DNA of 64,000 bases from Nitrosarchaeum sp. (GTDB taxonomy: Archaea > Thermoproteota > Nitrososphaeria > Nitrososphaerales > Nitrosopumilaceae). The stretch lies in contig OZ245020.1 of the NCBI GenBank assembly GCA_965223865.1, positions 416,001-480,000 of the forward strand, read 5' to 3'. The position numbers were made by a program, and so were the translations under genes. This document shows, piece after piece, positions 35,997-42,998 of this stretch (positions are counted from its first letter, which is position 1; the number at the start of each line of letters is the position of its first letter). The notes beneath the pieces are model-generated. The model saw only the letters and a list, made by a program, of their open reading frames with translations. It did not search any database and was not told the DNA's origin.

Positions 35997-36009
35997 ACGG
36001 GCTTGGAGG
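35997..36009. repeat. distal att site: 13-bp copy of tRNA-Arg 3' end
   Basis: ACGGGCTTGGAGG, identical to 42904..42916. Confidence 0.85.
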
Positions 36010-36137
36010 TTCTCGCCTTCTCCAGCATTCGAAACCTCTAATTTTATTGATTTTTTCAAGATTTTAAAGTACTATAATCACTATATTTTATAATGTTTTA
36101 GTTATTGCTATGTAAAATAAAAAATAGGATGTCTTTT

Positions 36138-37256
36138 CTATGATTCTGGCAAATTATAGTAGCCACGTATGTTATCGATATCTGTTTGAATCTTACCCTT
36201 TTGTTCTGATGATTCTGTCATGTCTAATGCAATATCAAACTGCTCTTCTGCTTTTTCAAGTGGTGCTTTTTCTATACTATACATGTAAGAGTAAGCTTCA
36301 CCTTGGCACATGTGCGAATTAATTGAATCAAATTTTGAACAATAATTTAATGCTATTTCTGGATGTTTATAAATCGCATTAATTGCTTTTCCAATCCATG
36401 CATTTTCTGTATTGAATTTGCCCTCGTATAGATCTATTGCATTTTGGTATTCCACTTCAGACTCTTCTGAGAAAGACTTTATCTGACCAAAGTTACTTTG
36501 TGCTTGTAAAGAACTTCCCATACCAATAATAGATAACATGTGAAGATACTGCCCTCGTTTCAAATGATCAGAATGCCAATTATTTGTATCAAATATGGTT
36601 TTTGCCTTGACGAATGTTTCATATGATTGAGAATATTGTTTCTCCTCATACTGATGATTACCCATAGAGATCAGATATTCCATATCGTATAATGCATTTG
36701 CACTAGCCCATACAGATACACCAACTATGAGTCCAGCAGATATGAGAGCCACAACAGAACCAATTATTAGATAAGATGCAACAGAAGAACCAAACATAGT
36801 AAATCCTGAGGTAATCTTCCCAGATACTTCTAACAATCCAATACCTGTAGCAATAGATGCAGCAAGTGCAATTGGTACTCTGTGTTGCAATATAGGATTT
36901 CCATAATCAGTATTGTTCTCTAATGCATAAAATGAGGTTGCTATTCTAGTATCATTATAACCAGTAGTAGATATTTCCCAATCTAGTCTATAATTTGGAT
37001 TATTTGGATCTGATGCAGGTGCTACAGATCCACTTATCAGCTTATATTGAATTGATCTTTGTATTCTAAATACATAGTCATATCCTTCTTGCTTTAGATA
37101 TTCTGAATCAAGCTTTTCTTTTTTTCCAGCATATTTTATTCTTGAAAATAATCGTTTTGCTGCGAATGGATCCTGTAAGTTTTCGTATACTGTCTTTTGT
37201 CGTTGTTTGACATCCTTATAAGTACAAGTAATTAAATCAGCACCCAAAACATCCAC
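36138..37256 (-). CDS. membrane protein: soluble N-domain, 2 Gly/Ala-rich TM helices, TPR-like C-terminus
   Basis: Hydrophobic hairpin at about aa 127-185; TPR-like segments (MGNHQYEEKQYSQSYETFVKA, AEEQFDIAL). Confidence 0.7.
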   Translation of the reverse strand: MDVLGADLITCTYKDVKQRQKTVYENLQDPFAAKRLFSRIKYAGKKEKLDSEYLKQEGYDYVFRIQRSIQYKLISGSVAPASDPNNPNYRLDWEISTTGYNDTRIATSFYALENNTDYGNPILQHRVPIALAASIATGIGLLEVSGKITSGFTMFGSSVASYLIIGSVVALISAGLIVGVSVWASANALYDMEYLISMGNHQYEEKQYSQSYETFVKAKTIFDTNNWHSDHLKRGQYLHMLSIIGMGSSLQAQSNFGQIKSFSEESEVEYQNAIDLYEGKFNTENAWIGKAINAIYKHPEIALNYCSKFDSINSHMCQGEAYSYMYSIEKAPLEKAEEQFDIALDMTESSEQKGKIQTDIDNIRGYYNLPES

Positions 37257-37578
37257 CTTTGTTTACTGGTTTTTTCATTAATTTTTGAACAAATTCTCTG
37301 AAGTCAGATAAATAATCATCAAATGCGATAGACATATCGATAAACTTCTTTCCTTCATCTGTAACACAAAAGACAGGTTTTTTATCATCTTCACACCTCT
37401 CAACAAGTTCATGTTTTATTAAAATAGAAGTATCTCTACTAATTGAAGAAGGTAGTCTTCGTAATGAACGAACCATACAATCATTTGTATGAGGTCCTTC
37501 TTCTACTGCGAATAGTACCTCAAATGTAGAATTGTTTAATTGTATCTTTGAATCTGGTATTCTTCTTTTAGAAGTCAT
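37237..37578 (-). CDS. winged-HTH (MarR-like) regulator
   Basis: PSSISRDTSILIKHELVE...FCVTDEGKKF wing signature. Confidence 0.75.
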   Translation of the reverse strand: MTSKRRIPDSKIQLNNSTFEVLFAVEEGPHTNDCMVRSLRRLPSSISRDTSILIKHELVERCEDDKKPVFCVTDEGKKFIDMSIAFDDYLSDFREFVQKLMKKPVNKGGCFGC

Positions 37579-37584
37579 GCATTA

Positions 37585-37628
37585 TTAATCATAAATTCAT
37601 ATAAAACCATTTTTCACATATGTGAAAT
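37585..37628 (-). promoter_or_regulatory. promoter/operator cassette, copy 1
   Basis: 44 bp with minus-strand TTTTATAT about 25 bp before the wHTH ATG and perfect palindrome TTTCACATATGTGAAA. Confidence 0.75.
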
Positions 37629-37688
37629 TTAGAGTAGCGTCACAACATTATAAAAACAATTTTTAAAGAAAAATAATAAGTGATTTTT

Positions 37689-37901
37689 TTACAATTGAGA
37701 TTTTATATTGTGCATTTTAAGCATTAATCCTCCTAATGTCCCACCTAACCCTATAGCCAAATGTGAGAAGATCGCTGATCGTTCATCAGATTCTACTAAT
37801 CCAGCTAGTATTAAAGACATCAAAAATCCACTACCCAATACTACTATGAGCAAATTGGTAAAATCATTATCCATTGTAATTTTGTTCTTTTTAGATTTCA
37901 T
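37689..37901 (-). CDS. 70-aa 2-TM membrane peptide
   Basis: Two Gly-rich hydrophobic helices; lies downstream of promoter copy 2. Confidence 0.6.
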   Translation of the reverse strand: MKSKKNKITMDNDFTNLLIVVLGSGFLMSLILAGLVESDERSAIFSHLAIGLGGTLGGLMLKMHNIKSQL

Positions 37902-37962
37902 CAGTAAGAAAATAAATGTAAAAAAAATTATTTAATATTTTGTAACATATGTGAAAGTTTTG

Positions 37963-38006
37963 TTAATCATAAATTCATATAAAACCATTTTTCACATATG
38001 TGAAAT
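37963..38006 (-). promoter_or_regulatory. promoter/operator cassette, copy 2
   Basis: Identical 44-bp direct repeat of 37585..37628. Confidence 0.75.
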
Positions 38007-38395
38007 CATGCAAATTAATTTGGAGATGTCTTATTTTATTGTTGTATACAATTCTTATCTTGTAAATTCTTCTTAAACTTTCTACGTGATAGTTTTTAGA
38101 ATAAACTATATTCTATGTGTTTTTCTTTTCTTCAAATTTAGAATCATACTCAATAGATGGTCTTAACACATAATGCTTTGGTGACTTTTAGAGACTCTGA
38201 TCTAAGTGGCCGTTCAAGTTTCTATTGCTCTTACTTTCATGACAATATTTTCAACTTCTAGTTGTTGCAAAAATATCAGAAGATAATTGTTGAAGTATTG
38301 ACAAAATATAAAATAATTAATTTTCACTATCTACAAAAAAGGTATTATATTGTCTATATCTTAAATTTTAATCTAACAATATAATTCTAGATAAG

Positions 38396-39322
38396 GTGTA
38401 CGATCAAATCATCAGTATATTTCAAACCAAACCCCATTCTAGTTCAATCACGGCAAAAATAAAATACATTGAAAAAAACTTTAGAAATAAAACCCAAGAA
38501 CTACTTTATCACATAATCAGTATAGTAGAAGAATACGAAGAGATGGGCTACAACCTTACTGTAAGGCAAGTATACTATCAGCTTGTCTCACGTGATATCG
38601 TCCCTAACAATCTTGGTTCATACCAACTTACAAGCCGTGTCCTCAAAGATGCTAGAATGTCAGGACTAGTAGATTGGGATACAATAGAAGACAGGGTACG
38701 GCAGATAATTATGCCAAATGAGTTTGATGATGTAACCGAATTTATCACTGCTGCAATAAACTCATACAGACTACCAAGATGGAAAGACCAAGATCATTAT
38801 GTGGAGGTAATTGTAGAAAAAGAGGCACTTGCCGGAATACTGCGTACATTAACTAGTAGATACCATGTCCTTTTGCTTCCAAACAAGGGATACTCTTCAG
38901 CTAGTGCAATTCATGAGGCAGCTCAGAGATTCATATATCAAACATCAGAGGAAAAACAATGTCACATATTGTATCTTGGTGATCATGACCCAAGTGGGAT
39001 GGATATGGTACGAGACATACAAGACAGACTAGATGAGCTTTTGTGTACGGTATCAGTTGAAAAGATTGCCCTTACAATGGACCAGATAAAACAATACAAT
39101 CCACCTCCAAATCTTGTCAAAAAGTCAGATTCTAGGTCAAAAAAGTATGTCACTGAATATGGGGATAAATCATGGGAGCTAGATGCCTTAAAACCTGAAG
39201 TACTAAATGAATTGGTAGAGTCTAATATCAAAAAGTATCTTGATATGGAAAAATACGATGATATATTATCTCAGGAAAAACGTGAGAAACTGAGACTAGT
39301 TGAACTTTCTAATGCTGTTTGA
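38396..39322 (+). CDS. stand-alone TopoVI-A/Spo11-like protein (Mini-A-like; WH + TOPRIM)
   Basis: LTVRQVYYQLV (catalytic-Tyr helix), VEKEAL (TOPRIM Glu), LGDHDPSG (DxD), WELDAL. Confidence 0.8.
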   Translation: MYDQIISIFQTKPHSSSITAKIKYIEKNFRNKTQELLYHIISIVEEYEEMGYNLTVRQVYYQLVSRDIVPNNLGSYQLTSRVLKDARMSGLVDWDTIEDRVRQIIMPNEFDDVTEFITAAINSYRLPRWKDQDHYVEVIVEKEALAGILRTLTSRYHVLLLPNKGYSSASAIHEAAQRFIYQTSEEKQCHILYLGDHDPSGMDMVRDIQDRLDELLCTVSVEKIALTMDQIKQYNPPPNLVKKSDSRSKKYVTEYGDKSWELDALKPEVLNELVESNIKKYLDMEKYDDILSQEKREKLRLVELSNAV

Positions 39323-39365
39323 GAATAAAATAGATAGTTAGTAGATTCCAAAATCTACCACCCAA

Positions 39366-39478
39366 CCAGTAACGGTTCACCAGTTCAGTTCACCAGAACA
39401 GTTCACAAAAAATGCCATATTCTATGTATTATAATAAAAAGTGTGGGAACTATACCGATGAACTGTGTCCATGAACCG
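39366..39478. repeat. inverted array of 13-bp-phased repeats around an AT-rich spacer
   Basis: GTTCAC at 39375/39388/39401, GAAC at 39447/39460/39473. Confidence 0.7.
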
Positions 39479-40891
39479 GCATAATTGTGATTTTCTTCCC
39501 ATATTCGGGGGCTATAGAGTCCAAGATCTTCTGAATCTTGTCTTGAGTGTCTTCATAGCACCAAACTTCAACTTTGGAGAACCATTTTAGATTCTTTGTC
39601 ATATTTGACTTGACCTGTTCTGGAGGGCTCGTATCTCTTGCGGTGATTCTATCTCTATTGCAACAGCATTTGCCACATCAAAACTCTCATTGTCCAGTAT
39701 TGGTATGGATATTGCATCTGGCTGCTCTATTATGATGTCTTGCTTTAGGACCTCAAAATAGTACGCATGGTCAAGATGGTGTCTTTTTGCCTCCTGAATG
39801 AGGAAAAATGACTCTATTCCCCCCTCACGTTGATTCTCAAGGACTGGATTGAACAGTTTTTCTAGATTGCCTGATAGGTTATGCTCTATTCGGGATGATG
39901 TTTCAGATGGACTAATTGATACTAATCCCATGTTTGCAAGATTTTGCAGTCGGATTTTGACATCAGCCTTGTTGACACCTGACATTCCTGCAATGTCAGA
40001 TAGACTTGGACGGTATGACTTGTTGTCTGTGTCCTGTCGGTTTTTGATTAGATTGTGCATTACTACGCATATTTTGTGATGTTTTGGTTTGTATTCTGCA
40101 AGACTAATAGATGTCATATTTAGAATCTTTTGACTCTTTTGGATGTCAGTTGGACCTGTTGGTTTTTGCCTTTGTTGTTCCTCTTTTATTTTTGCCCTAA
40201 TTGCGGTCTCTTGTGGTATTTGTATGTCCTCAGAAACAGAAGATGATGTCATTGTTTCTGTATTTTCATTGTTATCTATTTTCTCAAATAGCTTTTCTAT
40301 TCTGTCTACAAGTTCGTTGTTGTTTATACGACACATGTCAAGTGTTTCATTACAGTATCTGAATATTCGTGGAATATGCACATCTTCCATCTCCTTTTTT
40401 ACTGTTCTTTGCAGAAATTCACTTACCTTTTTATCCATTTTCAGAGTATCTGTAAATTTTGTCACCATGTCCTGAATAGAGTTTACATCTTGTCTGTGAT
40501 CTTCTCTCATTGATGTAGCTGTCTCTTTGATTGTAGTTACAGCCTGCTCTAGGTGTTCTGTAACTGAAGAAAGATTGTCTGAAAACAGCTCCTCTCCTCG
40601 TTTTGTTCCCCACGAAAATGTTTTCCACGATACTGCTCCGCATATGCCTGCTATTGCAACTGTTAGTACTGTATCTAGAGGCTGCATATCTACAATGACC
40701 TGTTGTACCAAAGGAGATATCACAATACCATTTACTACTGCGATTCCCAGTATTGTGAGAAATCGTACTGCATTCTCCTCAATTCTGATTCTCTGCATCA
40801 TTCCTGACTGGAGGGATCCTCCTATGGCAAATGGCAATCCAACCATACTGACAAGAGACACTATCAAAAGTATCATGTCCAATGGAGGCAT
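39450..40891 (-). CDS. TM + coiled coil + wHTH + PD-(D/E)xK-like protein (frameshift near 39624)
   Basis: 3 N-terminal TM helices; SLSDIAGMSGVNKADVKIRLQNLANMGLV; QPDA...AIEIES; alternate frame continues PEQVKSNMTKNLKWFSKVEVWC to stop at 39450. Confidence 0.65.
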
Positions 40892-41044
40892 TTTTACTGC
40901 TGCACCTCCTTCTGGTCATTCTTCTTCAGAGTTGTATTTTCTATTGTTTTTGTGTGATCTTTTTTCATGCAATATGATAAATGATTTGTATATAAGCGGA
41001 AAATTTTCCAATTTTTGCTTTTATACAAACCACAATACCATATT

Positions 41045-41407
41045 ATGAAAGAAAATTGTTCAAATCAAAAGAAATCACATGCATTATTACTTGCAGAGCT
41101 AGATAGACTGCAAAAAATTACAGGCAATAACCAACAATCTGATCTAGTATGGTCTCCTCAAAGTGATTCGCAGATAGAGGGAAAAGTTGACGAAAACACG
41201 ATTACAATCTATTCTGAAAATATTGCAGATGCAATAGATACATTGCAACACGAGTTTGTTGACTATGTTATTAGTCAAGCAATCAAACCGTATATCAAAC
41301 TAGTAAATTTGTTGATGTCAATAATCACAAAAGATGCATATGAAACAAAAGAAGATGTAGTAGAATCATTGTTAAGATTAATGAATAATGATTCTACAAA
41401 AAATTAG
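41045..41407 (+). CDS. zincin-like small protein (HExxD variant)
   Basis: EGKV..TITIYS...DTLQHEFVD; start moved to ATG 41045. Confidence 0.55.
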   Translation: MKENCSNQKKSHALLLAELDRLQKITGNNQQSDLVWSPQSDSQIEGKVDENTITIYSENIADAIDTLQHEFVDYVISQAIKPYIKLVNLLMSIITKDAYETKEDVVESLLRLMNNDSTKN

Positions 41408-41412
41408 TTGTT

Positions 41413-42863
41413 TCATTTTTGTTTTCTCACAATGACACGATTACGTGTTAATTCCTTTATCGGTTCCCACCCTTGACATATGTAATGTAATAATTGTTCA
41501 CATTTTTTATTATCTTTCCATCGTATTGTTTCTGTTGGATTTCGTTAGTAGATGTTACAGATGATGACATTGTCTTCATTATTTCTTGTCTTATTGCATC
41601 TGTTTCTTGTTCAATGTCAAAAATTATTTCGTTGTCTGTATCATTTGAATTATTAATTTTCTTTCTTTGTCTTTGTTTTTCAATCTTGATCTTTACAGGA
41701 TCAATTCCATATAACTTTGCTTGTTCTCTCCACATGTCAAGTAACATCTCTTTTTTGTTTTGAACAGAATTGCTGTTCTTACTATTTATGGTACACAGAA
41801 ACTGTTGGCTTTTAGAGTATGCACTTCTCATGTCTGAGATCATCTCATCAGTTAACCTTCCTTTGTTTGTAGTGTATCTTGCCTCAATGTCTCCCTTATG
41901 TCCCATAAAGAACTGTCTGTATGCATGAGTCATCTTTCCATGGCTTTCAGCTAATAGTAACTGAGTATCAAAGTATGCACGCAAGACATACGGTCTTGCT
42001 TTAGTTATGCTCCAGATTGCTTTTCTAATATCTGATGTAATTCGTGGTGTTGTGATTAATTCTGTAGATGATTTGAGAGTTTTACTTCCTCTTCTTGATT
42101 GATATCCTTGCTCCAAAGATATTACAGGTGAATTTTTGGTAAGGTTTTCGCCAGATGAGGTTCTTTTTCTCATATAGCCTAGAACATATTCGCATCCTTC
42201 TGCAGGCAAGAATGTAAAGTACTTATTTTTGGTCTTGCTTAGTGATGCTCTCACAGTAATCATTGCAGGTATTTGTGCAAAACTAACTGTTCTACCATCA
42301 TTTTCAATCACTAGATCATTCAAGTCAGCTAATTTGAGACCATCACTTGCGTCATAATTTCCCATTACTTGTGGTCTAATACCTGAAAATGCCATCAAAC
42401 TGATACTAGTTCTGGTTCTAGGATTTGCAACATTGAGGATCGACTGTAATTGTTCTTTGGTAGGTACCTGCTCGTCTTGTATGTTTACTGGTATTCCTGC
42501 ATTTGCAATTCTTATCTTTCTTTTTGGCTCTATGTAGTTGAAGACAAGCCATGATCTTATTGATTTGAGTATTCCATCGATATAGTTTGGTGCATAGTTT
42601 TGTGATTCAAGCCATGACACATGATCAAATAATATGTTCTCAAGCTTGATGATGTCTCTTTTTCCCATTTTTACAAGAAAAGATGGTGTAGTATTTGTCC
42701 TGTAACAAAATAGATTCAATCTGCGTAGTCTAATGTCTGCATTTAGCTTGCTACCTCTACTTGTGTTGTCATACCAGCGTTGTACATTTTTATCTTGCAG
42801 AAGAGCTTTTGTTGCAGATTTCTCCTTTGTTTTAGTAGACATTATTTTTCTCCACAATGTCAT
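41413..42863 (-). CDS. tyrosine recombinase/integrase (C-terminal frameshift near 41500)
   Basis: SGIRP (R), SKTK (K), YVLRAYF (R), FMGHKG (H), ARYT (Y); track ORF stops at 41457 but the alternate frame gives EQLLHYICQGWEPIKELTRNRVIVRKQK*. Confidence 0.9.
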
Positions 42864-42904
42864 ATTTGATTTGCTTAAAAGCAGGTCTCGGATCCTGGAG
42901 TATA

Positions 42905-42998
42905 CGGGCTTGGAGGGCTTCGATCCCTCGACCTGTAACTTAGGAGGCTACCGCGCTATCCATGTTTCGCGTCAAAAATGACTCTGCGCCACAAGCCC
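42905..42998 (-). tRNA. tRNA-Arg(CCT) with non-canonical 19-nt D-loop intron (42965..42983)
   Basis: Acceptor GGGCTTG/CAAGCCC, anticodon arm GTAGC-CTCCTAA-GTTAC, T arm GAGGG/CCCTC; removing the intron restores a 75-nt cloverleaf. Confidence 0.9.

What the first reader, a model, noticed from the sequence alone, without database searches (positions are those of the whole stretch)
38396..39322. Orphan TopoVI-A/Spo11-like (Mini-A-like) protein with intact catalytic motifs but no B subunit
Seen: TVRQVYYQL, VEKEAL and GDHDPSG. Known: these match the catalytic-Tyr winged helix and TOPRIM metal site of TopoVI-A/Spo11. Short homologs (Mini-A) occur on archaeal mobile elements, and Wadjet JetD has a related TOPRIM domain. 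There is no GHKL B subunit or SMC gene in the element. Inferred: it could be a stand-alone double-strand-break enzyme for element replication or resolution, a modulator of host TopoVI-B, or a defence nuclease.
Basis: partly seen in the sequence, partly recalled or inferred. Interest (0 to 1): 0.78.

Follow-up and report, generated by a model that had tools for sequence, protein, structure and literature searches.

The report
Stand-alone Mini-A topoisomerase-like gene
This gene encodes a member of the already described 'Mini-A' family, a short relative of the DNA-cutting half of topoisomerase VI, and it sits on a small mobile element inserted next to a tRNA gene of an ammonia-oxidising archaeon; what such proteins do has not been tested in any organism.

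Summary
The ORF at 38396-39322(+) encodes 308 aa carrying RQVYY, VEKEAL and GDHDPSG, plus KSWELDAL, the box published as the Mini-A discriminator. It matches phrog_6247 (E 2e-96) and folds as a winged helix plus Toprim domain, with Top6A the best structural match. It sits with Mini-A and apart from Top6A in a quick tree, and it is under purifying selection (dN/dS 0.08-0.13).

It lies in a 6.9-kb element bounded by 13-nt direct repeats at the 3' end of an intron-bearing tRNA-Arg(CCU). Two related genomes have the same site empty. The element has no GHKL or SMC gene. The host's own Top6B/Top6A pair lies about 370 kb away. A second, 86% identical copy sits beside tRNA-Arg(UCU).

This is therefore a new member of a known family (Takahashi 2020; thaumarchaeal homologues were already noted in 2021), and it is not an orphan.

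The function is untested. My best reading is a homodimeric, Mg-dependent tyrosine transesterase that serves replication of the element.

New here: a conserved core of Mini-A, a convergent ~480-aa winged-helix protein, a 130-aa protein and an integrase-like protein. Directly downstream of Mini-A lies a strongly conserved non-coding GTTCA-repeat/AT-rich block, a candidate cis site.

The parts
35997..36009 (.). attL: 13-nt core ACGGGCTTGGAGG, a direct repeat of the tRNA-Arg 3' end
   Evidence: Exact 13-mer shared with 42904-42916. In G054 and G003 the left flank (up to window 36009) and the right flank (from window 42904) overlap by exactly these 13 nt, so those sites are empty.
36138..37256 (-). 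Variable cargo ORF, 372 aa, no family match
   Evidence: No hit in Pfam, PHROGs or PADLOC. Not shared with the related elements.
37237..37578 (-). Variable cargo ORF, 113 aa, possible winged-helix regulator (weak evidence)
   Evidence: PF25212 HVO_A0114 at E 0.0098, 16.1 bits, below the cut-off of 27.6.
37582..38006 (.). Two 47-nt direct repeats (37582-37628 and 37960-38006, 98% identical). Each carries the palindrome TTTCACATATGTGAAA, and a third, imperfect copy lies at 37939-37959. They flank a 70-aa ORF (37689-37901, -). Probably duplicated promoter/operator regions of the two minus-strand genes (inferred).
   Evidence: the repeat finder families D1 and D3, inverted pair I1, sequence.
38396..39322 (+). 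Topo Mini-A gene, 308 aa: winged helix (5Y-CAP part) at residues ~30-101, Toprim at ~133-281, C-terminal helices to 307
39373..39453 (.). Conserved non-coding block in the convergent spacer: four direct GTTCA copies (39375, 39383, 39388, 39401), an AT-rich stretch, then the invariant core AAAGTGTGGGAACTAT (39438-39453, which overlaps the stop codon of the minus-strand gene). Candidate cis site: origin, cleavage site, operator array or antisense promoter.
   Evidence: Alignments. With 6 GTTCA/TGAAC copies this is the densest 130-nt interval in the 64-kb window, against 0.32 expected. The DNA fold is not significant (z -1.55).
39450..40891 (-). Conserved ~480-aa partner gene. Here it is split into 430 aa (39599-40891) and 50 aa (39450-39602) by a 1-nt deletion near 39626/39627 relative to L009. 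Hydrophobic N-terminus (my reading of the sequence, not run through a membrane predictor), a central MarR-like winged helix, and a conserved C-terminal domain of undetermined fold.
   Evidence: Alignment A2, frameshift. Family of 57 proteins. AF2 model of the C-terminal 214 aa of the L009 orthologue, pLDDT 73.5, with MarR-type matches at Z 10-11.7 for fragment residues 1-84. Convergent and adjacent to Mini-A in 8 of 8 loci that hold a close homologue.
41015..41407 (+). Conserved core ORF, 130 aa, no family match
   Evidence: Shared by the window, L003, L007 and L009. No Pfam, PHROGs or PADLOC hit.
41457..42863 (-). Integrase-like protein, 468 aa (putative tyrosine recombinase, inferred)
   Evidence: Lies next to attR. 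Invariant R163, K210, Y292, R295, H322 and Y330 in 39 homologues fit the R-K-(H/Y)xxR-H-Y pattern of tyrosine recombinases (my knowledge). 2 of the 120 listed homologues are named 'site-specific integrase' by NCBI. No Pfam, PHROGs or PDB sequence match.
42904..42916 (.). attR: second copy of the 13-nt core, overlapping the tRNA 3' end
42905..42998 (-). tRNA-Arg(CCU) gene, 94 nt, with a ~19-nt insertion between the acceptor stem and the D arm; the integration target
   Evidence: Rfam tRNA at 26.9 bits (gathering score 29), E 0.0011, over 42910-42975, with anticodon loop CUCCUAA. ARAGORN missed it. An identical gene sits at the same site in L007.

Best explanation
The gene encodes a bona fide Topo Mini-A, a ~290-aa stand-alone homologue of the A (DNA-cleaving) subunit of type IIB topoisomerases. 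It is carried by a 6,907-bp integrative element inserted at the 3' end of a tRNA-Arg(CCU) gene of a Nitrosopumilaceae archaeon.

Proposed mechanism, with shown and inferred steps marked:

- Shown by prediction only: it forms a symmetric homodimer through the linker, the Toprim domain and the C-terminal helix.
- Inferred from the Top6A/Spo11 chemistry and the invariant residues: each protomer binds Mg2+ with E141/D196/D198 and attacks DNA with Y61 (positioned by R57). This gives a 5'-phosphotyrosyl link and a free 3'-OH, and the break can be resealed without ATP.
- Inferred from context: the enzyme works on the element's own DNA after excision. It either starts replication, by a site-specific nick or break whose 3'-OH primes host polymerases (as HUH initiators do), or it processes or resolves replication products.

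The conserved GTTCA-repeat/AT-rich block directly downstream and the convergent winged-helix protein are the candidate target site and DNA-binding partner.

My odds: identity as Mini-A 0.95; a replication or recombination role 0.6; the specific nick-and-prime initiator model 0.35. The confidence figure given for this field (0.55) is for identity plus a replication-associated DNA-cleaving role taken together.
For: Identity:
- phrog_6247 at E 2.2e-96.
- The RxxYY, E, DxDxxG and WELDAL motifs are all present and invariant (definition in PMC7671362 passages).
- AF2 model with pLDDT 89.4 and pTM 0.83.
- Toprim residues 133-281 match Top6A 1d3y_B (Z 12.1, rmsd 2.9, 141 aligned), 2zbk_A (Z 11.3), MksG 8b7f_B (Z 11.1) and Spo11 8uru_A (Z 9.8). 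Residues 30-101 match winged helices at Z ~7.
- Foldseek's top hit is 1d3y_B at E 1.3e-06.
- In the quick tree all 22 Mini-A rows, including a record annotated 'Topo Mini-A', are split from 14 Top6A rows at SH-aLRT 100.

Mobile element:
- 13-nt direct repeats.
- Empty sites in G003 and G054.
- The same site in G030 holds a 31,618-bp element with the same core and the same 13-nt ends.
- Mini-A was found in 6 of 151 family genomes.

Dimer: ipSAE 0.60 (three runs: 0.60, 0.64, 0.60) against a best control of 0.00. The mark was reached by 20 of 30 proteins solved as pairs and by 1 of 23 solved as single chains. The runs agree in at least 93% of contacts and the partner's pLDDT is at least 85.

Replication role:
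- In Pseudomonas phage NP1 the gene lies between DNA ligase and a Sak4-like annealing protein, within a primase / RNase H / ThyX / Cas4-exonuclease / helicase block.
- In a Chi-like Salmonella phage it lies near recombination exonuclease and ThyX genes.
- In the 6.9-kb element here and in the 8.8-kb archaeal plasmid P-7H_11 no other replication protein is recognisable.
- For skuldviruses this absence is stated by the authors, who proposed Mini-A as a rolling-circle-like initiator (passages).
- 3 of 10 long family members carry LAGLIDADG/Hint inteins.
- dN/dS is 0.076-0.133.

Cis site: a conserved GTTCA-repeat/AT-rich block follows Mini-A in 8 of 8 loci with the Mini-A/480-aa pair. At least 3 direct GTTCA copies are present in 7 of 8, and a 16-nt core is invariant in 8 of 8. 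It is the densest GTTCA/TGAAC cluster in the window.
Against: - No biochemical data exist for any Mini-A. The reviews read in passages say so, and my searches found no assay.
- The dimer pass may come from the model's memory of solved Top6A dimers. Y61 and the acidic residues are not among the listed contacts, so a trans active site is not shown.
- The global superposition on Top6A is poor (TM 0.33-0.38, rmsd 16-17). Domain orientation may therefore differ, or may be wrongly predicted.
- The phages that carry Mini-A have their own primase and helicase. There it cannot be the sole initiator, which fits a recombination or processing role as well as it fits initiation.
- 2 of the 8 loci in the cis-site count were found by a 24-nt motif that contains most of the invariant core. 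Only 6 are therefore independent for that core.
- Part of the right-hand repeats lies in coding DNA (the I-M-P-V-H end of the 480-aa gene). The block could equally be a terminator or an antisense promoter. Its DNA fold is not significant.
- The partner gene is frameshifted in the window and truncated in the second copy. These two elements may no longer be autonomous.
- No circular or excised form was seen (contigs only).
Confidence: 0.55

Rival explanations
1. Mini-A is a dimeric double-strand breaking and rejoining enzyme. It would be used for recombination-dependent replication, concatemer or dimer resolution, or decatenation of the excised element, rather than for initiation.
For: The homodimer prediction gives two active sites. 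Top6A and Spo11 make double-strand breaks (established knowledge). The phage neighbours are recombination genes: Sak4-like annealing protein, Cas4-type exonuclease and ligase, and a recombination-associated exonuclease. In L008, L010 and L011 an actin-like (ParM/ALP) protein sits beside Mini-A, which suggests a plasmid-maintenance module (ALP_N at 22.4 bits, below the cut-off of 26.3).
Against: Strand passage in known type II enzymes needs an ATPase gate, and none is present. The element already has an integrase-like recombinase that could resolve dimers. There is no direct evidence.
Confidence: 0.25
2. Mini-A is a defence or counter-defence nuclease of the element, JetD/MksG-like, that cuts competing plasmid or viral DNA.
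For: The Toprim domain matches the MksG nuclease 8b7f_B (Z 11.1) almost as well as it matches Top6A. Foldseek lists JetD 7til at E 7.9e-03. The related 31.6-kb element in G030 carries an OLD-family nuclease and a KAP NTPase directly upstream of Mini-A.
Against: The PADLOC JetD model scores only 14.5 bits (E 0.0035), with no stretch passing on its own. There is no JetABC/SMC partner. The catalytic Tyr and Arg are invariant in this alignment. As far as I recall, cleavage by JetD/MksG is described as hydrolytic through the Toprim site, without a covalent tyrosine link. Mini-A belongs to the conserved core, whereas the defence-like genes are in the variable cargo arm. In phages it sits in replication modules.
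Confidence: 0.1
3. Mini-A pairs with or titrates the host Top6B, modulating host topoisomerase VI.
For: The host encodes a canonical adjacent Top6B/Top6A pair. Mini-A shares the A-subunit core fold.
Against: In the profile alignment Mini-A residue 40 lines up with host Top6A residue 89, so the N-terminal segment that contacts Top6B has no counterpart (PMC7671362 passages). Most family members listed are in phages of bacteria such as Pseudomonas, Salmonella and Xylella. Topo VI is only sporadic in bacteria (PMC11302465, abstract start seen in the search listing).
Confidence: 0.03
4. The two copies in this genome are decaying remnants, and Mini-A has no current function here.
For: The partner gene is frameshifted in the window and truncated in the second copy. 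No left att site was found for the second element. No excised form was seen.
Against: Both Mini-A frames are intact. dN/dS between them is 0.076 at dS 1.07. The 13-nt att repeats of the window element are intact.
Confidence: 0.07

Closest known systems
Topo Mini-A (Takahashi, Da Cunha, Gadelle et al., NAR Genom Bioinform 2020; PMC7671362)
   Same: About 300 aa. Only the second half of 5Y-CAP plus Toprim. RxxYY, E, DxDxxG and the xWELDAL T2BI box. No B subunit nearby. Encoded on a mobile element. Groups with a record annotated 'Topo Mini-A' and with phage 'DNA topoisomerase' proteins.
   Different: Nothing at the protein level. The carrier here is a small tRNA-integrating element with no recognisable virion gene, whereas the paper links Mini-A to free or integrated viruses. 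I could not see the paper's supplementary tables, so I cannot say whether this protein or its close relatives are listed there.
Top6A / Spo11 (A subunit of topoisomerase VI; meiotic break enzyme)
   Same: Winged helix with a catalytic Tyr preceded by Arg, a Toprim metal site, and a predicted dimer.
   Different: It lacks the N-terminal Top6B-binding part. PF21180 scores 20.3 bits, below the cut-off of 24.1, and no TP6A_N hit appears. There is no adjacent B subunit. It has WELDAL in place of the Topo VI box. A long branch separates it from Top6A.
JetD / MksG (nuclease subunit of Wadjet / MksBEFG)
   Same: Top6A-like CAP plus Toprim fold (8b7f_B at Z 11.1; 7til at E 7.9e-03).
   Different: There are no JetABC/Mks partners and no JetD N-terminal arm. 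The PADLOC JetD model scores only 14.5 bits. Mini-A keeps an invariant Tyr and Arg.
Topo VIII (plasmid-borne fused B-A type IIB topoisomerase)
   Same: MGE-borne type IIB relative that also lacks the first part of 5Y-CAP (PMC7671362 passages).
   Different: Topo VIII carries the GHKL ATPase and transducer and the RVELNAM box. Neither is present here. No Topo VIII sequence was available for my tree.
HUH rolling-circle initiators and relaxases (functional analogy only)
   Same: A tyrosine forms a 5'-phosphotyrosyl link and leaves a 3'-OH, and the gene sits next to a repeat-bearing site. Mini-A was proposed as the analogous initiator for skuldviruses.
   Different: Unrelated fold and a different metal site. 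No nick site has been defined for Mini-A.

Membership tests
Topo Mini-A | Stand-alone protein of about 300 aa made of the 5Y-CAP winged helix plus Toprim only | tested here: met
   308-aa ORF. AF2 model with a winged helix at 30-101 and Toprim at 133-281.
Topo Mini-A | Catalytic tyrosine in an RxxY/FY motif | tested here: met
   R57-Q-V-Y60-Y61. R57 and Y61 are invariant in 61 sequences. The motif aligns to the host Top6A RDVYY.
Topo Mini-A | Toprim metal ligands: E followed by DxDxxG | tested here: met
   E141 is invariant. D196, H197, P199 and G201 are invariant, and D198 is conserved in at least 90%. These align to the Top6A E and DGD.
Topo Mini-A | xWELDAL T2BI box, which discriminates Mini-A from Topo VI and Topo VIII | tested here: met
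   S259-W-E-L-D-A-L265. W260, E261, D263, A264 and L265 are invariant. The box is defined in PMC7671362 passages.
Topo Mini-A | No N-terminal 5Y-CAP part and no B (GHKL) subunit in the neighbourhood | tested here: met
   The alignment to Top6A starts at Top6A residue 89. No GHKL or SMC hit in the element's ORFs. No recurrent neighbour across 23 loci by BLASTP clustering.
Topo Mini-A | Encoded by a mobile genetic element | tested here: met
   att repeats and empty sites. Found in 6 of 151 related genomes.
Topo Mini-A | Clusters with named Mini-A and apart from Top6A | tested here: met
   In the quick ML tree 22 Mini-A rows are split from 14 Top6A rows at SH-aLRT 100. The careful search did not finish, and Spo11, Topo VIII and JetD were not included.
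Topo Mini-A | DNA cleavage or topoisomerase activity | not testable with these tools
   No assay is reported for any member in the papers I read in passages.
Top6A (Topo VI A subunit proper) | Passes the Pfam Top6A models (TP6A_N and TOP6A-Spo11_Toprim) | tested here: not met
   PF21180 scores 20.3 bits against a cut-off of 24.1, and there is no TP6A_N hit. The host's real Top6A scores 171.6 bits.
Top6A (Topo VI A subunit proper) | Adjacent Top6B gene | tested here: not met
   The only Top6B match in the genome is at C1:823957-824427, about 370 kb away and next to the real Top6A.
JetD / Wadjet nuclease | Matches the JetD models and sits with JetABC | tested here: not met
   PADLOC JetD scores 14.5 bits, E 0.0035, with no stretch passing. 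There are no SMC-like neighbours.
Tyrosine recombinase (for the neighbouring 468-aa protein) | R-K-H/YxxR-H/W-Y catalytic residues and the catalytic fold | tested here: inconclusive
   Invariant R163, K210, Y292, R295, H322 and Y330 with fitting spacing. 2 of the 120 listed homologues are named integrase. No Pfam, PHROGs or PDB sequence match.

The most novel reading that the evidence does not exclude
Three neighbouring parts together form a self-contained replication module of a family of Nitrosopumilaceae integrative plasmids: Mini-A, the conserved GTTCA-repeat/AT-rich block directly downstream of it, and the convergent winged-helix protein of about 480 aa with a hydrophobic N-terminus. In this module the winged-helix protein marks the site. 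The Mini-A dimer opens it by a tyrosine-mediated cut (5'-phosphotyrosyl link, free 3'-OH). That would make a type IIB topoisomerase A-subunit relative a replication initiator, unrelated to HUH, Rep_3, Orc or primase-type initiators. It would also give the long-sought function of Mini-A and bear on whether a stand-alone A subunit was the ancestor of Topo VI and Spo11.
Probability: 0.25. Interest if true: 0.8.

Novelty: new member of a known kind. Interest (0 to 1): 0.38.

Why it matters
Mini-A is a very large, MGE-borne branch of the topoisomerase VI/Spo11 superfamily, with 13,263 representatives at 50% identity. Its activity has never been measured. Whether a lone A subunit can cut DNA bears on how Topo VI and the meiotic break enzyme Spo11 arose (PMC7671362 passages).

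This locus adds no new kind of protein. It does offer one of the smallest natural contexts: a 6.9-kb element with exact borders, empty-site controls, a four-gene conserved core and a sharply conserved non-coding block next to the gene. A cleavage or replication assay with a defined candidate substrate can be designed from it.

It also documents a family of tRNA-targeting integrative elements in marine ammonia oxidisers. Their integrase-like protein escapes Pfam, and they can carry defence-like and copper-oxidase cargo.

Tried and rejected
- NCBIfam and PDB sequence searches of Mini-A gave nothing meaningful.
- A universal 'Mini-B' partner was sought by BLASTP clustering of ORFs within 4 kb of Mini-A in 23 loci. 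Only clade-specific neighbours recur (an earlier set of 7 loci).
- Left border of the second element: no shared word of 9 nt or more with its tRNA-Arg(UCU) end within 9.4 kb.
- The 480-aa partner has no Pfam, PHROGs or PADLOC hit. Atlas feature scores were at most 0.82, which is uninformative.
- In the VIA search of its C-terminal fragment the MarR-like winged helix filled the list, so fragment residues ~90-214 were barely tested. The Foldseek top hit, restriction enzyme PspGI (E 3.7e-04, TM 0.29, rmsd 19), is only a lead to a PD-(D/E)xK-like domain.
- Integrase-like protein: no hit in Pfam even at E 10, in PHROGs, or in PDB by sequence or by profile.
- The DNA fold of the conserved spacer is not better than shuffles (z -1.55; 17 of 200 shuffles fold as well).
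- Relatives of the 480-aa protein: none in viral contigs. The genome contigs machine gave no answer twice, so I used the genome search instead.
- Sequencing runs: no RNA holder is listed, so there is no evidence on expression either way.
- Laid contigs of 4 runs show no circle junction. One X1 contig joins 35981 to 42904 with 16 other letters, at depth 7.7 against about 100-420 elsewhere. This is most simply a related strain with an empty site, not excision.
- A complex of Mini-A with host Top6B was not run, because the single job went to the homodimer.
- The careful ML search did not finish in the time allowed, so a quick tree is reported.
- My first dN/dS run used a wrong frame for L003 and was redone.
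- The 47-nt repeats upstream of Mini-A were considered as an origin. I set this aside because they are not shared with the related elements and sit at the starts of two cargo genes.
Full report
**Observation.** The ORF at 38396-39322 (+) exists: GTG start, 308 aa. It also contains KSWELDAL. The paper that defined Mini-A gives xWELDAL as the short C-terminal 'T2BI' box that tells Mini-A from Topo VI and Topo VIII (PMC7671362, passages read by term search).

The match to known families is asymmetric:
- PHROGs family phrog_6247 ('DNA topoisomerase') matches at E 2.2e-96 over residues 21-304.
- Pfam's TOP6A-Spo11_Toprim reaches only 20.3 bits against a cut-off of 24.1.
- NCBIfam and a sequence search of the PDB give nothing meaningful.

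**What the protein is.**
- Alignment: in 61 homologues R57, Q58, Y61, E137, E141, K142, D196, H197, P199, G201 and W260-E-x-D-A-L265 are invariant.
- Structure: AlphaFold2 with this alignment gives a confident model (pLDDT 89.4, pTM 0.83; residues 1-17 disordered).
- Fold, without Foldseek: the Toprim domain (133-281) matches Top6A 1d3y_B best (Z 12.1, rmsd 2.9, 141 residues). Next come 2zbk_A (Z 11.3), the MksG nuclease 8b7f_B (Z 11.1) and Spo11 8uru_A (Z 9.8). Residues 30-101 match winged-helix domains at Z about 7.
- Fold, Foldseek: Top6A, M. mazei Topo VI, MksG, Spo11 and JetD rank on top. The global TM is only 0.33-0.38, so the relative placement of the two domains differs from the crystal forms or is uncertain.
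- Profile-profile alignment to 14 Top6A sequences taken from the host and its phylum: RQVYY falls on RDVYY, VEKEAL on IEKGGL and GDHDPSG on TDGDVYG. The alignment starts only at Top6A residue 89, so the N-terminal Top6B-binding part has no counterpart.
- Quick maximum-likelihood tree (the careful search did not finish): 22 Mini-A rows are separated from 14 Top6A rows at SH-aLRT 100. The Mini-A rows include a GenBank record annotated 'Topo Mini-A' and a Chi-like phage 'DNA topoisomerase'. Spo11, Topo VIII and JetD were not in that tree.
- The PADLOC JetD model scores 14.5 bits.

Every sequence-level feature that defines Mini-A is met. The features that define Top6A proper or JetD are not.

**How common it is.**
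- At least 7,570 proteins match at E <= 0.001 among the 8,000 candidates scored in the 90%-clustered collection.
- A profile search of 1.84 billion representatives finds 13,263 at E <= 0.001, 8,852 at <= 1e-10 and 3,386 at <= 1e-30.
- 84 of 50,697 phage records hold it, among them Pseudomonas, Salmonella Chi-like, Xylella, Xanthomonas and Flavobacterium phages and the haloarchaeal virus HCIV-1.
- 47 of 72,556 plasmid records hold it (38 Streptomyces, and two 8.8-kb archaeal plasmids annotated 'Topo Mini-A').
- In the host's own family it was found in 6 of 151 genomes searched, G000 included.

It is therefore not an orphan. The genome itself has a second copy, 86% identical, at C1:650403-651269.

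**The element.** The relatives that carry titles are Nitrosopumilus and Nitrosarchaeum MAGs, so the host is a Nitrosopumilaceae archaeon.
- Just beyond the 468-aa gene at 41457-42863 lies a tRNA that ARAGORN missed. Rfam finds it at 26.9 bits, E 0.0011, with anticodon loop CUCCUAA. I read it as tRNA-Arg(CCU), 42905-42998 (-), with a ~19-nt insertion between the acceptor stem and the D arm.
- Its last 13 nt are repeated at 35997-36009.
- In two same-genus genomes (G054, G003) the left flank ends at window 36009 and the right flank starts at window 42904. The two overlap by exactly those 13 nt, so these are empty sites. The element is thus 6,907 bp (36010-42916).
- In a third genome (G030) the same site holds a 31,618-bp insert with the same 13-nt ends and the same core. 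It also carries cargo that includes an OLD-family nuclease, a KAP NTPase, a multicopper oxidase and a Kelch-repeat protein.
- The second copy in G000 sits beside tRNA-Arg(UCU), and a Nitrosopumilus relative sits beside tRNA-Met.
- The part shared by these elements is 38375-42928: Mini-A (+), a ~480-aa gene (-), a 130-aa gene (+) and the 468-aa gene (-).
- The left arm (36010-38383) is variable cargo.
- None of the element's ORFs has a GHKL or SMC hit in the libraries run on it (Pfam: 5 ORFs; PHROGs: 7; PADLOC: 6).
- The host's canonical Top6B/Top6A pair is at C1:822759-824427.

**The neighbours.**
- The 468-aa protein has no Pfam, PHROGs or PDB sequence match. It does have invariant R163, K210, Y292, R295, H322 and Y330, with the spacing of tyrosine recombinases (the pattern is from my knowledge). 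2 of 120 listed homologues are named 'site-specific integrase'.
- Relatives of the 468-aa protein occur in 44 of 151 family genomes, often in several copies. That count includes the unpublished genome G077; without it the count is 43 of 150.
- The ~480-aa protein is intact in L007 and L009. In the window it is split by a 1-nt deletion near 39626/39627, and it is truncated in the second copy.
- Its family is small: 57 proteins, all at least 58% identical over the C-terminal 214 residues except two partial matches (45% and 27% of the query covered).
- A model of that C-terminal part (pLDDT 73.5) shows a MarR-like winged helix (Z 10-11.7). The last domain was left essentially untested. A weak Foldseek hit to restriction enzyme PspGI is only a lead.
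- Close homologues were found in 5 of 401 family genomes: G000, G030, G349, G371 and G395. Four more genomes gave weak matches (27-30% identity), for 9 of 401 at E <= 1e-8.
- In all 8 loci with a close homologue the gene is convergent with, and adjacent to, Mini-A.
- Other Nitrosopumilaceae Mini-A loci (L008, L010, L011) instead have an actin-like (ParM/ALP, sub-threshold) gene and an unknown 292-aa gene beside Mini-A.
- No neighbour recurs across bacterial, phage and archaeal loci. This agrees with the published failure to find a 'Mini-B'.

**A conserved non-coding block.** The 127-nt spacer between the stops of Mini-A and the 480-aa gene is better conserved than the coding DNA.
- It holds four direct GTTCA copies (39375, 39383, 39388, 39401), an AT-rich stretch, and a core AAAGTGTGGGAACTAT (39438-39453).
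- The core is invariant in 8 of 8 loci. At least 3 direct GTTCA copies are present in 7 of 8.
- 2 of the 8 loci (L059, L060) were found with a 24-nt pattern that includes most of the core. For the core, only 6 are independent.
- The two loci found through the protein (G371, G349) have Mini-A only 51-53% identical to the window's and still keep the core.
- The interval holds 6 GTTCA/TGAAC copies in 130 nt, the maximum in the 64-kb window, against 0.32 expected.
- The two inverted copies lie in the coding end of the 480-aa gene.
- A DNA fold is not significant (z -1.55).
- I read this as a cis-acting site. Whether it is an origin, a cleavage site, an operator array or an antisense promoter is open.

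**How it most likely works.**

Shown:
- The catalytic residues of the Top6A/Spo11 transesterase are all present and invariant.
- The gene is under purifying selection: dN/dS 0.076-0.133 in 6 pairs at dS 0.35-1.30, and 0.076 between the two copies in this genome.
- It sits on a mobile element.

Predicted:
- A symmetric homodimer, ipSAE 0.60 (runs 0.60, 0.64, 0.60) against a best control of 0.00. That mark was reached by 20 of 30 proteins solved as pairs and by 1 of 23 solved as single chains. Contacts agree in at least 93% and pLDDT is at least 85.
- The interface uses residues 97-128, 143-177, 214-216 and 297-308.
- The pass may reflect memory of solved Top6A dimers. The active-site residues are not among the listed contacts.

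Inferred:
- Y61 attacks DNA with Mg2+ held by E141/D196/D198. This gives a 5'-phosphotyrosyl link and a free 3'-OH, the same polarity that HUH initiators use.

Context favours replication or recombination:
- In phage NP1 the gene lies between DNA ligase and a Sak4-like annealing protein, inside the replication block.
- In a Chi-like phage it lies near recombination exonuclease and ThyX genes.
- In the 6.9-kb element here and in the 8.8-kb plasmid P-7H_11 nothing else looks like a replication protein.
- For skuldviruses the authors state this absence and proposed Mini-A as a rolling-circle-like initiator (passages).
- 3 of 10 long family members carry inteins with LAGLIDADG/Hint domains. Inteins are typical of replication and nucleotide-metabolism enzymes (my knowledge).

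I therefore commit to a replication-associated tyrosine transesterase (0.6), most likely a nick-and-prime initiator acting at or near the conserved block (0.35).

Rivals:
- a double-strand break, resolution or recombination enzyme (0.25);
- a defence or counter-defence nuclease (0.1);
- a Top6B modulator (0.03);
- a decaying remnant in this genome (0.07).

**Known or new.**
- Mini-A was described in 2019/2020 (PMC7671362).
- Thaumarchaeal homologues appear in the tree of the Asgard-virus preprint.
- Reviews of 2021 and 2024 and a 2026 preprint still call the function unknown or hypothetical.
- My searches of the held library found no assay: 'mini-A' with topoisomerase VIII, Topo VI, phage or Spo11; 'Topo mini-A' and its variants; and Top6A + Toprim + phage + rolling circle.
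- The 2019 survey of thaumarchaeal integrated elements, read in passages, mentions a topoisomerase only once, as type IA. It notes that many small cryptic elements lack a recognisable replication protein.

Verdict: a new member of a known kind. The added value is the exact element borders, the conserved four-gene core and the conserved block next to the gene.

**Left open.**
- Expression: no RNA holder was listed.
- Excision: contigs of 4 runs show no circle junction. One low-depth empty-site contig differs in 16 letters from the flank and probably comes from another strain.
- The trans active site in the dimer.
- The fold of the integrase-like protein and of the last domain of the 480-aa protein.
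- A co-fold with host Top6B.

Noticed in passing
window 42905-42998 (-): tRNA-Arg(CCU) gene with a ~19-nt insertion between the acceptor stem and the D arm. ARAGORN missed it, and it falls below Rfam's gathering score (26.9 against 29 bits). An identical gene lies at the same site in L007.
   Followed up: partly
window 41457-42863 (-); relatives in 44 of 151 Nitrosopumilaceae genomes (the count includes unpublished G077): A widespread, often multi-copy and sometimes pseudogenised integrase-like family with invariant R-K-YxxR-H-Y residues. It has no Pfam, PHROGs or PDB sequence match, and most database copies are called 'hypothetical protein'.
   Followed up: partly
G030:C1:1333450-1365031 (L040/L041): The same tRNA-Arg(CCU) site holds a 31,618-bp element with the same core. 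Its cargo includes an OLD-family nuclease directly upstream of Mini-A, a KAP NTPase, a multicopper oxidase, a Kelch-repeat protein, a DsbD-like membrane protein and a spermine-synthase-like methyltransferase.
   Followed up: partly
window 37582-38006: Two 47-nt direct repeats (98% identical), each carrying the palindrome TTTCACATATGTGAAA, with a third imperfect copy. They lie in front of the 113-aa and 70-aa minus-strand genes. They look like duplicated operator/promoter regions of the cargo arm.
   Followed up: no
window 39599-39630 and L003 10378-11816: The conserved ~480-aa partner gene is broken in both elements of this genome: a 1-nt deletion near 39626/39627 in the window and an internal loss in the second copy. 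Both Mini-A genes are intact.
   Followed up: yes
proteins P0206, P0171, P0254, P0141 (family representatives): 3 of the 10 long Mini-A homologues examined carry inteins (LAGLIDADG_3, Hint_2, Intein_splicing). One intein is inserted near the Toprim glutamate and two near the PPPN..K..D.R motif. One homologue has an N-terminal DUF1643 domain (E 7.6e-23).
   Followed up: partly
plasmid hits H43-H65: 38 of the 47 plasmid records with a Mini-A homologue are Streptomyces. Among the 19 actinomycete rows listed, 12 matches lie within 15 kb of a record end, and three records have two places. I did not check whether these are linear plasmids with terminal repeats.
   Followed up: no
L008 1756-2634, L010 4509-5411, L011 7128-7964: In a second group of Nitrosopumilaceae Mini-A loci the gene lies beside an actin-like (ALP_N/MreB, below cut-off) protein, adjacent in L008 and L011 and about 1.3 kb away in L010. 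A conserved unknown protein of 270-302 aa follows Mini-A directly in all three. This looks like a plasmid partition-type neighbourhood.
   Followed up: partly
L028 (Paenibacillus durus 15,151-bp circular plasmid NZ_CP009289.1): A Mini-A homologue (44% identical) sits on a small circular replicon that also encodes a zonular-occludens-toxin (Zot) domain protein, as filamentous phages do. No other replication gene is annotated.
   Followed up: no
L063 (G371), L065 (G349), L059, L060: The Mini-A/480-aa convergent pair and the core AAAGTGTGGGAACTAT persist in elements whose Mini-A is only 51-54% identical to the window's.
   Followed up: yes
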